Sequence record: OP172790
Length of the DNA stretch: 64,000 nt
Reading direction: 5' to 3' (one strand)
DNA from: Escherichia phage ECO319P1
Shown: one piece after another, positions 11,152 to 11,685 of the stretch
Numbering within the stretch: position 1 is the stretch's first letter
Layout of the letters: each line of letters begins with the position of its first letter
Translations under genes and position numbers: made by a program
Notes under the pieces: generated by a model
What the model saw: the letters and a program-made list of their open reading frames with translations, nothing else
Databases searched by the model: none
What the model was told of the DNA's origin: nothing

Positions 11152-11685
11152 ATGGAAACTGCACATAGTTTAATTCATAATGGATTCTTAAAAGTACATT
11201 CAACAACTGTTGATGGTAAAACTTATGAGTATCTGGAAAGCAAGCCGACTGTCTCTACGCTTCTTGTGGAACAACAAGGGAACCCTCTGGATGATATCCT
11301 CACCATTGGTGTTCAACATCGTATTGGTGCATCTGCTGGGGAGTTGAAAGAAAATGCTATCTACACACTCGCCTCTGGTTACGTTGATGGTAATGAGACC
11401 ACAACTGATGCTGCGCATCGTGAAGCCGAGGAAGAATTTGGGGCACGGGGTCATGTTTTTAAATTGGGAGCAGGATATAACTCGCCTGGAATCTCAACTC
11501 AAATTACGGAAATGTTCTGGATGAATGTCCAAGAATGGCATGAGCCGATTGACCCCGGCGAAGGTGTGAAGCCTATCAAGTTAACTCTTGGTCAGGTTCT
11601 GCACATGGTTAAATCCCCGTTCACAGTGCTCAGTATGCCACTGACGAACACAATCCTGCTTTATGCTGCAATGCGTGGTGTCTAA
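11152..11685 (+). CDS. Nudix hydrolase
   Basis: AAGGTG RBS; Nudix box GYVDGNETTTDAAHREAEEEFG fits G-x5-E-x7-REUxEExGU. Confidence 0.75.
   Translation: METAHSLIHNGFLKVHSTTVDGKTYEYLESKPTVSTLLVEQQGNPLDDILTIGVQHRIGASAGELKENAIYTLASGYVDGNETTTDAAHREAEEEFGARGHVFKLGAGYNSPGISTQITEMFWMNVQEWHEPIDPGEGVKPIKLTLGQVLHMVKSPFTVLSMPLTNTILLYAAMRGV

What the first reader, a model, noticed from the sequence alone, without database searches (positions are those of the whole stretch)
11152..11685. Nudix hydrolase in the early region
A clear Nudix box is present. Phage Nudix enzymes can decap host RNA or hydrolyse NAD/ADP-ribose-type nucleotides; combined with the macro domain and a possible PnuC-like transporter this suggests interference with NAD/ADP-ribose-based host metabolism or immunity.
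Basis: inference. Interest (0 to 1): 0.4.

Follow-up and report, generated by a model that had tools for sequence, protein, structure and literature searches.

The report
NudF-like Nudix hydrolase in phage
A small gene in the replication/host-takeover half of a Cronobacter-type podophage encodes a genuine but fairly ordinary Nudix enzyme of the kind that splits ADP-ribose and related nucleotide-sugars; relatives of this phage carry several other NAD/ADP-ribose-handling genes.

Summary
ORF 11152-11685 (+, 177 aa) carries one complete Nudix box, G76-x5-E82-x7-R90-E91-A-E-E94-E95-F-G97-A98. It is the only such match in the window, against about 3e-5 expected by chance. The gene is under purifying selection (dN/dS 0.08 against Cronobacter phage A24).

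By family profile and by fold it belongs to the NudF/NudK clade (ADP-ribose and NDP-sugar pyrophosphatases). It has the N-terminal GF domain, the Q-x-R motif, the X-loop proline and the D-x-x-E loop. It lacks counterparts of E. coli NudF R56, E139 and E162. It is not MutT-, NudC- or RppH-like.

The window is about 86% identical to Crifsvirus phages A24 and GAP52. A24 and GAP52 also carry the published NARP1 NAD+-rebuilding pair just upstream of where the window starts.

The family is rare and has been found only in phage genomes and metagenomic contigs. It occupies a variable slot: related contigs lack it or keep a copy with a degenerate Nudix box.

The substrate (ADP-ribose as best guess) and any counter-defence role are inferred, not shown. 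Verdict: a new member of a known kind, of modest interest.

The parts
11152..11685 (+). Nudix hydrolase gene (177 aa plus stop), NudF/NudK-like
11142..11147 (+). Shine-Dalgarno-like AAGGTG, four bases before the ATG; overlaps the stop codon of the upstream 81-aa ORF
   Evidence: Read directly from the sequence.
11377..11445 (+). Nudix box, residues G76-A98 (GYVDGNETTTDAAHREAEEEFGA); carries the catalytic and metal-binding R90, E91, E94 and E95
   Evidence: Only match in the window, chance 3e-5. Aligns to the T. thermophilus ADPRase box (R81/E82/E85/E86), and to the E. coli NudF box.
11179..11190 (+). N-terminal NGFL motif (N10-L13) of the NudF-type N-terminal domain; F12 aligns with E. coli NudF F28
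   Evidence: Profile alignment. G11 and F12 are nearly invariant in A2. The AF2 model is unreliable here (pLDDT below 50).
11314..11328 (+). Q55-H-R57-I-G59 motif (Q-x-R-x-G); aligns with E. coli NudF Q77/R79
   Evidence: Invariant in the 23-sequence alignment. Alignment to 1g0s.
11479..11502 (+). X-loop, N110-Q117 (NSPGISTQ); keeps the ADPRase-signature proline P112 but has Q117 where NudF has E139
   Evidence: The X-loop and proline concept comes from PMC5389931.
11551..11562 (+). D134-P-G-E137 loop. E137 aligns with the residue I recall as the NudF metal ligand E164. P135 aligns with the proposed catalytic base E162.
   Evidence: alignment. D134 and E137 are nearly invariant.
10898..11143 (+). 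Context: conserved 81-aa ORF (phrog_24116), the upstream border of the variable slot
11685..11912 (+). Context: 75-aa WYL-like ORF whose ATG overlaps the Nudix stop (TAATG); the downstream border of the slot, present even where the Nudix is absent
   Evidence: Pfam WYL 21.9 bits against 21.8. PADLOC WYL 1.4e-5. Synteny.
21980..22483 (+). Context: macro domain protein (TARG1/OARD1/DarG-like), immediately upstream of RtcB (22483-23610)
35383..36060 (+). Context: PnuC-like nicotinamide riboside/NMN transporter; no NadR-like partner was recognised among the window ORFs that were scanned
   Evidence: Pfam NMN_transporter 3.4e-25. phrog_1880. Neighbouring ORFs.

Best explanation
The gene encodes an active, soluble Nudix pyrophosphatase of the NudF/NudK (ADP-ribose and NDP-sugar) clade. 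By analogy with that clade it probably works as a homodimer. It is expressed as one gene in a long, tightly packed, co-directional block of non-structural genes (replication, nucleotide metabolism, host takeover).

The Nudix helix residues R90, E91, E94 and E95, together with E137 from the D-x-x-E loop, would hold the divalent metals and activate water to cut the pyrophosphate of a nucleoside-diphosphate-X compound. The N-terminal GF domain and the proline-containing X-loop would select the nucleoside and the X group.

The most likely substrate is free ADP-ribose or a close derivative, giving AMP plus ribose-5-phosphate. In this phage lineage ADP-ribose would arise from host NADase defences and from the phage's own macro domain. 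The enzyme would remove or recycle it, alongside the lineage's other NAD/ADPr genes: the NARP1 pair in the closest relatives, PnuC, and the macro domain.

Shown: the gene is real, it belongs to this clade by sequence and fold, its catalytic residues are intact, it is under purifying selection, and the context genes exist. Inferred: the substrate, the dimer, and the physiological role. The confidence of 0.55 is for the whole statement. Taken separately, I put about 0.85 on an active NudF/NudK-clade pyrophosphatase, about 0.5 on ADP-ribose as the main substrate, and about 0.3 on the stated physiological role.
For: Intact Nudix box, unique in the window.

Sequence. The single-sequence best PDB match is T. 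thermophilus ADP-ribose pyrophosphatase, with R81/E82/E85/E86 aligned to R90/E91/E94/E95. The family profile against PDB gives E. coli NudF 4.4e-25 (residues 22-198 of 209), Klebsiella NudF 9e-25, NudK 3e-24 and Tt ADPRase 2e-20. In contrast, MutT scores 1e-5, NudC 2e-5 and RppH-type 2e-7.

Clade-specific features are conserved: the GF motif, Q55/R57, P112 at the same spacing after the box as in Tt ADPRase, and D134/E137. Proline in the X-loop is the published ADPRase signature (PMC5389931).

dN/dS is 0.08-0.3 among intact orthologues.

Context. The macro domain and PnuC are verified. A24 and GAP52 are listed as NARP1 phages. A Prs-like plus NAPRTase pair lies upstream in L012, L015 and L020. 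All 5 genomes with an intact Nudix and a readable upstream region have NARP1.

Precedent. Phage Nudix enzymes act on ADPr, and Nudix domains are coupled to NAD+ salvage in NadM/NatV (PMC9503650; PMC13464706).
Against: No biochemical data exist for this protein or any homologue.

NCBIfam TIGR00052 (YffH/AdpP) scores only 23.9 bits against a cut-off of 79.55. PHROG Nudix families match only weakly.

[quoted passage not shown] Their roles are my recollection of Gabelli et al. 2001/2002. The X group may therefore not be ribose. NudK (GDP-mannose) matches about as well as NudF.

An ADPRase would compete with NARP1's Adps enzyme for ADP-ribose.

The link to NARP1 is not statistically supported: 5/5 against 2/4, one-sided Fisher about 0.17 by hand calculation, and the genomes are related to one another. 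NARP1 occurs without an intact Nudix in L017 and L019.

The AF2 model comes from only 8 sequences (pLDDT 75; residues 1-28 below 50).
Confidence: 0.55

Rival explanations
1. NudK-like NDP-sugar pyrophosphatase. The enzyme cuts GDP-mannose or another nucleotide-sugar rather than ADP-ribose. This would drain precursors of host capsule, colanic acid or O-antigen, or salvage nucleotides from them.
Against: No sugar-nucleotide or polysaccharide genes lie nearby. The genomic company is NAD/ADPr-related. The mannose-recognition residues of NudK were not checked.
Confidence: 0.15
2. Dedicated counter-defence or pathway-tuning enzyme. It destroys ADPr-derived immune signals (Thoeris gcADPR or His-ADPR and the like). 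Alternatively it converts the NARP1 intermediates ADPR-PP and ADPR-cP to AMP plus PRPP or PRcP.
For: The NARP1 paper reports that the Nudix enzyme NudC cuts ADPR-PP to PRPP in vitro. Iyer et al. 2022 argue that phage Nudix, Macro and NADAR proteins mainly counter soluble ADPr-derived signals. The X-loop is altered relative to NudF. All five readable genomes with an intact Nudix carry NARP1. The gene is an accessory in a variable slot, as anti-defence genes often are.
Against: There is no direct evidence. The co-occurrence is not significant and is phylogenetically confounded. No PADLOC or other defence-related family matches. I know of no ADPRase-clade Nudix shown to cleave gcADPR.
Confidence: 0.12
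3. RNA-decapping Nudix (NudC/RppH-like) that removes NAD caps or 5' triphosphates from host or phage RNA.
For: RNA ligase 2 lies about 1 kb downstream and RtcB about 11 kb downstream. Very weak NCBIfam hits to the RppH and NudC models (E 0.0096 and 0.17).
Against: The best matches by far are the NDP-sugar/ADPRase clade. The NudC motif SQPWPFPQS and its zinc domain are absent. Rnl2 is not always present beside the Nudix (L002 and L015).
Confidence: 0.05
4. MutT-type housecleaning of oxidised or non-canonical (d)NTPs for phage DNA synthesis.
For: The neighbourhood is rich in nucleotide-metabolism genes (Dcd, NrdD/G, NDT-like, DNA polymerase).
Against: MutT and MTH1 match at only 1e-5 (28 bits) against 92 bits for NudF. 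The protein has the NudF N-terminal domain and X-loop proline. In A24 a separate MazG-like pyrophosphatase is annotated.
Confidence: 0.03
5. Mainly a non-catalytic ligand binder (an ADPr sensor or sponge, as in NrtR-type Nudix domains) that happens to keep its box.
For: Three related contigs keep a same-sized ORF in the same slot with a destroyed Nudix box (L013, L014, L019). This suggests a function that survives loss of catalysis. Nudix and WYL domains have been proposed as alternative ADPr sensors, and a WYL-like ORF is translationally coupled to this gene.
Against: In this protein and seven homologues at 49-94% identity, every catalytic residue is invariant. That would not be expected if catalysis were dispensable.
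Confidence: 0.05

Closest known systems
E. coli / Klebsiella NudF (ADP-ribose pyrophosphatase; PDB 1g0s, 1khz, 9b1z)
   Different: Only about 18-20% identity. It is about 30 residues shorter, with a shorter N-terminal hairpin. Counterparts of R56, E139 and the proposed base E162 are S30, Q117 and P135. It is phage-encoded and falls well below the NCBIfam subfamily cut-off.
T. thermophilus Ndx4 ADP-ribose pyrophosphatase (PDB 1v8i)
   Same: Similar size (170 aa). It is the best single-sequence PDB hit. The Nudix box, the proline spacing (14 residues after the box) and the D-x-D/E-E loop all align.
   Different: About 20% identity. The X-loop reads SPGFTDE in Ndx4 and SPGISTQ here.
E. coli NudK/YffH (GDP-mannose pyrophosphatase; PDB 3o52, 1viu) and Bdellovibrio NudF (5c7q)
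   Different: These enzymes act on GDP-mannose or a broad range of NDP-sugars. Nothing here indicates which X group is preferred.
Nudix domain of NadM / Vibrio phage KVP40 NatV (NAD+ salvage-coupled ADPRase)
   Same: A phage Nudix that acts on ADPr, found in a genome that also carries NAD+ salvage and PnuC-type genes (PMC9503650; PMC13464706).
   Different: Here the protein stands alone, with no fused NMN adenylyltransferase. NadM-type structures were not among the PDB sequence matches at E <= 1e-4. The salvage route in the relatives is NARP1, not NARP2.
Phage T4 NudE (e.1)
   Same: A stand-alone phage Nudix active on ADPr, FAD and Ap3A (PMC9503650).
   Different: A different Nudix clade. A T4-like NudE is only rank 17 in BFVD (E 9e-6, TM about 0.48). 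It is typical of myoviruses, whereas this phage belongs to Grimontviridae, which I recall (not checked here) as podoviruses.

Membership tests
Nudix hydrolase superfamily | Nudix box GX5EX7REUXEEXGU | tested here: met
   G76...A98 fits every specified position. It is unique in the window, with a chance expectation of 3e-5.
Nudix hydrolase superfamily | Nudix alpha/beta/alpha fold | tested here: met
Nudix hydrolase superfamily | Pfam PF00293 gathering threshold | tested here: met
   21.8 bits against 21.1, so marginal. Four of the seven homologues carry a precomputed PF00293 hit.
NudF/NudK clade (ADP-ribose and NDP-sugar pyrophosphatases; TIGR00052 YffH/AdpP) | N-terminal beta domain with GF motif preceding the Nudix domain, with full-length homology | tested here: met
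   The profile aligns positions 4-170 to NudF residues 22-198. G11 and F12 are nearly invariant. The model is unreliable for residues 1-28.
NudF/NudK clade (ADP-ribose and NDP-sugar pyrophosphatases; TIGR00052 YffH/AdpP) | Conserved proline in the X-loop downstream of the box (Dunn 1999; Srouji 2017) | tested here: met
   P112 lies 14 residues after the box, as in Tt ADPRase. It is invariant in A1 and nearly invariant in A2.
NudF/NudK clade (ADP-ribose and NDP-sugar pyrophosphatases; TIGR00052 YffH/AdpP) | Curated NCBIfam score cut-off for TIGR00052 | tested here: not met
   23.9 bits against a cut-off of 79.55. It is therefore a divergent relative, not a curated member.
E. coli-type ADP-ribose pyrophosphatase (NudF proper) | Loop metal ligand (E164) and catalytic base (E162) | tested here: inconclusive
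   E137 aligns with E164 and is nearly invariant. The E162 position is P135 and varies across the family. D134 (aligned with D161) is conserved and could substitute. The residue roles are from my memory of Gabelli et al. 2002.
E. coli-type ADP-ribose pyrophosphatase (NudF proper) | Residues contacting the phosphate and terminal ribose (R56, R79, E139) | tested here: inconclusive
   R79 is kept as R57. R56 becomes S30, although K31 next to it is mostly basic in the family. E139 becomes Q117. The residue roles are recalled, not checked.
E. coli-type ADP-ribose pyrophosphatase (NudF proper) | Hydrolysis of ADP-ribose to AMP plus ribose-5-phosphate | not testable with these tools
   This requires an enzyme assay.
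NudC / NADH diphosphatase (NAD-cap decapping) | SQPWPFPQS specificity motif and zinc-binding N-terminal domain | tested here: not met
   The motif is absent from the sequence. The NudC model scores E 0.17 and NudC structures 2e-5.
MutT / 8-oxo-dGTPase | Best similarity to MutT-type single-domain enzymes | tested here: not met
   MutT scores 28 bits against 92 bits for NudF. NF008044 scores E 0.027.
NadM/NatV-type bifunctional NMNAT-Nudix | Fusion to an NMN adenylyltransferase domain | tested here: not met
   The protein is a 177-aa single-function protein. Its flanking ORFs are an 81-aa and a 75-aa protein.
NARP1 (Adps + Namat) phage NAD+ reconstitution pathway | Being one of the two defining genes, or obligately linked to them | tested here: not met
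   The Nudix is neither Adps nor Namat and lies about 13 kb from them in A24. NARP1 occurs with the Nudix absent (L017) or degenerate (L019). All 5 readable genomes with an intact Nudix have NARP1, but this is not significant.

The most novel reading that the evidence does not exclude
This rare, apparently phage-restricted NudF-like lineage has an altered X-loop. It may have been retooled to act on ADP-ribose derivatives that matter in the phage-host NAD+ conflict. Candidates are TIR/Thoeris signal molecules and the NARP1 intermediates ADPR-PP and ADPR-cP, whose cleavage would yield PRPP. The box-degenerate copies kept in the same slot in related phages would then act as non-catalytic binders (sponges or sensors) of the same ligand, possibly together with the adjacent WYL-like protein.
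Probability: 0.1. Interest if true: 0.65.

Novelty: new member of a known kind. Interest (0 to 1): 0.28.

Why it matters
If the enzyme is an ADP-ribose pyrophosphatase, it adds one more piece to a compact NAD/ADP-ribose toolkit in Crifsvirus-type podophages. The other pieces are NARP1 in the closest relatives, PnuC without a phage NadR, and a TARG1/DarG-like macro domain beside RtcB.

It also raises a concrete question: why would a phage that rebuilds NAD+ from ADP-ribose also carry an enzyme expected to destroy ADP-ribose? The answer could be flux control, detoxification, recycling to PRPP, or a different substrate. Any of these would say something about how phages manage NAD+-depleting immunity.

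Nudix genes are reported in fewer than 1% of non-myovirus phages (PMC9503650), so this is an uncommon carrier. As it stands, though, the finding is an annotation upgrade from 'hypothetical protein' in the GenBank/RefSeq records for A24 and GAP52 to a NudF-like Nudix hydrolase. UniProt already labels the A24 orthologue a Nudix domain protein.

Tried and rejected
1. Searches of IMG/VR viral contigs and of GTDB representative genomes with the family alignment found no relatives. JGI metagenomes gave only two short contigs. A broader alignment (A2) was too divergent for the locus finder.

2. I first tried a TerD anchor (the ORF at 28-594) to reach both NARP1 and the Nudix in one locus. Its flank just misses the Nudix. 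I switched to the COOH-NH2 ligase anchor (4317-5114), which spans both.

3. I considered that the Nudix is an integral part of the amidoligase / ATP-grasp / GATase / GGACT cluster, and rejected it. That cluster is present in about 980 homologue clusters and in Salmonella phage PKM.Hi.22.6, L016, L017 and L018 without any Nudix.

4. I considered an obligate Nudix-WYL pair, and rejected it. The WYL-like ORF is retained at the same place when the Nudix is absent.

5. I considered an obligate link with RNA ligase 2, and rejected it. L002 and L015 have the Nudix but no Rnl2 in the locus.

6. The promoter and terminator scan of 9000-14500 gave fewer hits than shuffles. There is no private promoter or terminator, so the gene is read as part of a long operon.

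7. PADLOC gave no hit for the Nudix. PHROG Nudix families match only weakly (best 4e-5).

8. A deeper alignment for a second structure prediction was not attempted, because only window and first-search proteins may be submitted.

Full report

The finding's coordinates, 11152-11685, are exactly an ATG-to-TAA ORF on the + strand encoding 177 aa. An AAGGTG Shine-Dalgarno sequence lies four bases before the ATG.

Residues 76-98 read GYVDGNETTTDAAHREAEEEFGA. They satisfy GX5EX7REUXEEXGU at every specified position. A relaxed version of the motif occurs once in the six-frame translation of the whole window and never in 300 shuffles. The analytic expectation is 3e-5.

Pfam NUDIX scores just above its gathering threshold (21.8 against 21.1 bits). 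The gene is clearly under selection. Against the Cronobacter phage A24 orthologue, pS = 0.29, pN = 0.03 and dN/dS = 0.08, and the ratio is 0.13-0.31 against more distant orthologues.

**2. What genome is this?**

The region 9000-14000 is 86-87% identical at the DNA level to Cronobacter phages A24 and vB_CsaP_GAP52 (Grimontviridae, Crifsvirus; about 75-77 kb). Their orthologues of this gene are 94% identical in protein and are annotated 'hypothetical protein' in GenBank/RefSeq. UniProt/BFVD labels the A24 one 'Nudix hydrolase domain-containing protein'.

All genes from 28 to about 37170 are co-directional and tightly packed. A promoter and terminator scan around the gene finds nothing above the shuffled background. 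The Nudix gene is therefore read as part of a long transcription unit of non-structural genes.

**3. What kind of Nudix is it?**

*Sequence.* With the single sequence, the best solved-structure match is T. thermophilus ADP-ribose pyrophosphatase. Its R81/E82/E85/E86 align with R90/E91/E94/E95. The best NCBIfam model is TIGR00052 (YffH/AdpP), but far below its cut-off (23.9 against 79.55 bits).

The family is tiny. There are 7 homologues among 5.8 billion clustered proteins. In an exhaustive profile search of 1.84 billion representatives, only 3 score below 1e-30 and 12 below 1e-10.

A 23-sequence profile that includes the more distant relatives gave these PDB matches:

| PDB protein | E-value |
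|---|---|
| E. coli NudF (residues 22-198 of 209) | 4.4e-25 |
| Klebsiella NudF | 9e-25 |
| NudK (GDP-mannose pyrophosphatase) | 3e-24 |
| T. thermophilus ADPRase | 2e-20 |
| NUDT12/NudC-type, RppH-type, MutT | 1e-7 to 2e-5 |

*Residue mapping onto E. coli NudF.* The functional roles of the NudF residues are from my memory of Gabelli et al. 2001/2002.

| This protein | E. coli NudF | State |
|---|---|---|
| F12 | F28 | kept |
| Q55 / R57 | Q77 / R79 | kept, invariant |
| E82 | E103 | kept |
| R90 / E91 | R111 / E112 | kept |
| E94 / E95 | E115 / E116 | kept |
| P112 | P134 (X-loop proline) | kept |
| E137 | E164 | kept |
| D134 | D161 | kept |
| S30 | R56 | lost |
| Q117 | E139 (X-loop) | lost |
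| P135 | E162 (proposed base) | lost |

The X-loop proline is the ADPRase signature described by Dunn 1999 and Srouji 2017 (PMC5389931). The NudC motif SQPWPFPQS is absent.

Conclusion: this is a divergent, catalytically intact member of the NudF/NudK (ADP-ribose and NDP-sugar pyrophosphatase) clade. Its X-loop differs from the canonical ADPRases, so the group attached to the nucleoside diphosphate cannot be read from sequence.

**4. Surroundings in the window**

- Upstream lies an amidoligase-type cluster:
  - COOH-NH2 ligase, 4317-5114
  - Amidoligase_2, 5662-7173
  - class-II glutamine amidotransferase, 7233-9203
  - RimK-like ATP-grasp, 9714-10913
  - gamma-glutamyl cyclotransferase further on, 14707-15141
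- Immediately flanking the Nudix are an 81-aa ORF (10898-11143) and a 75-aa WYL-like ORF (11685-11912) whose ATG overlaps the Nudix stop codon.
- RNA ligase 2 is at 12620-13585.
Pfam is weak on it (20.3 bits against a cut-off of 22). It matches a Streptomyces macrodomain (5e3b) at 1e-13, human OARD1/TARG1 at 1e-10, and the PADLOC DarG model at 3.6e-15.
- The PnuC-like transporter is at 35383-36060 (Pfam 3.4e-25; phrog_1880). No NadR-like partner was recognised among the window ORFs that I scanned, so the published two-gene NARP3 pathway (PnuC plus NadR-like; PMC13464706) is incomplete here.

**5. Just outside the window**

In A24, about 1.4-4.5 kb upstream of where the window begins, lie a Prs-like gene and a Nampt-like gene (Pfam). 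Both A24 and GAP52 are listed in the supplementary tables of the NARP1 paper as Adps and 'Adps-associated' Namat carriers. NARP1 converts ADP-ribose plus ATP to ADPR-PP, and then ADPR-PP plus nicotinamide to NAD+.

A Logan contig with a 96%-identical anchor protein (L020) shows the same pair, followed by TerC, TerD and TerD, then the same gene order down to the Nudix. Whether the phage in this window has the pair cannot be seen from the window itself.

**6. Comparative anatomy of the slot**

I used the COOH-NH2 ligase as an anchor (983 homologue clusters) and fetched ±10 kb around graded relatives. I added two loci fetched from the Nudix homologues and the complete genome of Salmonella phage PKM.Hi.22.6. 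The Nudix sits in a variable slot between the 81-aa ORF and the WYL-like ORF.

| Genome or locus | Nudix in the slot | NARP1 pair |
|---|---|---|
| Window | intact | not readable (upstream of window) |
| A24 | intact | present |
| GAP52 | intact | present |
| L012 | intact | present |
| L015 | intact | present |
| L020 | intact | present |
| L002 | intact | not readable |
| L003 | intact | not readable |
| L013 | same-sized ORF (173 aa), box degenerate | absent from the syntenic place |
| L014 | same-sized ORF (155 aa), box degenerate | not readable (contig end) |
| L019 | 177 aa, so diverged the family HMM misses it, though the alignment shows homology | present |
| L016 | absent; 81-aa and WYL-like ORFs adjacent | not readable (contig end) |
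| L017 | absent; 81-aa and WYL-like ORFs both present | present |
| L018 | absent; WYL-like ORF kept, 81-aa ORF not detected | not readable (contig end) |
| PKM.Hi.22.6 | absent; 81-aa and WYL-like ORFs adjacent | absent from the whole genome |

In the degenerate copies, E82, R90, E91 and E95 are replaced (L013 and L014).

The Nudix is therefore an accessory gene. It is not tied to the amidoligase cluster, the WYL-like gene or Rnl2.

NARP1 status is readable for nine genomes. All five with an intact Nudix have it, against two of four without an intact Nudix. This is suggestive only: one-sided Fisher is about 0.17 by my hand calculation, and the genomes are not independent. PKM.Hi.22.6 also lacks Rnl2, macro, RtcB and PnuC.

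**7. Mechanism**

*Shown:* an intact metal-binding Nudix helix, the NudF-type architecture, and purifying selection.

*Inferred:* the protein is a Mg2+/Mn2+-dependent pyrophosphatase for a nucleoside-diphosphate-X compound, probably dimeric like its structural relatives. The most probable substrate is ADP-ribose or a close derivative, giving AMP plus ribose-5-phosphate.

In these phages ADP-ribose would be produced by host NADase defences and by macro-domain reactions. A NudF-like enzyme would detoxify or recycle it. Nudix domains that process ADPr are already known in phages (T4 NudE; NadM/NatV coupled to NAD+ salvage).

There is an awkward point. NARP1 needs ADP-ribose, so an ADPRase alongside it implies either flux balancing or a different preferred substrate. 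The NARP1 paper shows that a Nudix enzyme (NudC) can cut ADPR-PP to PRPP in vitro. That is the basis of the more adventurous reading.

*Rivals:* NudK-like NDP-sugar hydrolysis, which matches equally well by profile; destruction of ADPr-derived immune signals or processing of NARP1 intermediates; RNA decapping; MutT-type sanitation; and a non-catalytic binder role suggested by the degenerate relatives. The invariance of every catalytic residue in this protein and its closest homologues argues against the binder role here.

**8. Novelty and verdict**

The protein belongs to a known enzyme kind. Its role in NAD/ADPr metabolism is plausible but untested. It is a rare lineage that has so far been found only in phage genomes and metagenomic contigs:
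- no relatives in GTDB representative genomes or IMG/VR;
- only two phages among 50,697 phage records.

It also occurs in a phage group where Nudix genes are reported to be uncommon (fewer than 1% of non-myoviruses, PMC9503650). I rate it a new member of a known kind, with modest interest.

The ADPr-type assignment and the cited context genes hold. RNA decapping is not supported. The immunity link remains inference.

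Noticed in passing
L013:17735-18256, L014:8808-9275, L019:17949-18482 (same slot as window 11152-11685): Three related phage contigs keep an ORF of similar length (173, 155 and 177 aa) at the Nudix position, but the Nudix box is destroyed (E82, R90, E91 and E95 equivalents replaced). 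N- and C-terminal family features persist. This suggests repeated loss of catalysis with retention of some other (binding?) function. Representatives P0010 and P0011 from the exhaustive search show the same.
   Followed up: partly
window 11685-11912 (+): A 75-aa stand-alone WYL-like protein (Pfam WYL at threshold; PADLOC WYL 1.4e-5; phrog_3715). Its start codon overlaps the Nudix stop. It is conserved at 43-91% identity in all related loci, including those with no Nudix. Stand-alone phage WYL domains have no known function. WYL and Nudix sensor domains have been proposed as alternative ADPr sensors (PMC9503650).
   Followed up: partly
window 21980-22483 and 22483-23610 (+): A TARG1/OARD1/DarG-like macro domain gene (annotated 'phosphatase' in A24) abuts, with a shared-base overlap, an RtcB RNA ligase gene. 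A DarG-like macro could remove ADP-ribose from nucleic acids (anti-DarT) or process RNA-repair by-products. Both genes are absent from the Nudix-less relative PKM.Hi.22.6.
   Followed up: partly
L005 (A24 66597-69139), L020:747-3289; just upstream of window position 1: The closest relatives carry the NARP1 pair (Adps, Prs-like; Namat, Nampt-like) followed by TerC and two TerD genes. The window's first ORF (28-594) is the second TerD gene, cut at its 5' end by the window edge (homologues are 219 aa). The window therefore starts about 1.4 kb downstream of a probable NAD+ reconstitution operon.
   Followed up: partly
window 35383-36060 (+) and 34006-34620 (+): A PnuC-like transporter without an adjacent NadR-like kinase/adenylyltransferase, so the published NARP3 pair is incomplete. 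It would need the host NadR. A nucleoside 2-deoxyribosyltransferase-like gene (phrog_1817, 3.5e-61) lies two genes upstream.
   Followed up: partly
window 4317-15141 (+): A phiEco32-type amidoligase set: COOH-NH2 ligase type 2, Amidoligase_2, class-II glutamine amidotransferase with a long Cys-rich C-terminal region, RimK-like ATP-grasp, and gamma-glutamyl cyclotransferase. It is conserved across about 980 homologue clusters of related phages. Its product or target is unknown.
   Followed up: no
L013:14785-17499 and L019:15345-17654: In two of the three contigs with a degenerate Nudix homologue, the neighbouring ATP-grasp protein is about twice as long (904 and 769 aa against about 400). The extension has no Pfam match.
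   Followed up: no
window 54635-55720 and 55801-56739 (-): Two tandem paralogous major-capsid-like genes (361 and 312 aa), 72% identical over about 305 residues and identical in their first 37 residues. The downstream copy has a C-terminal extension of about 55 aa.
   Followed up: partly
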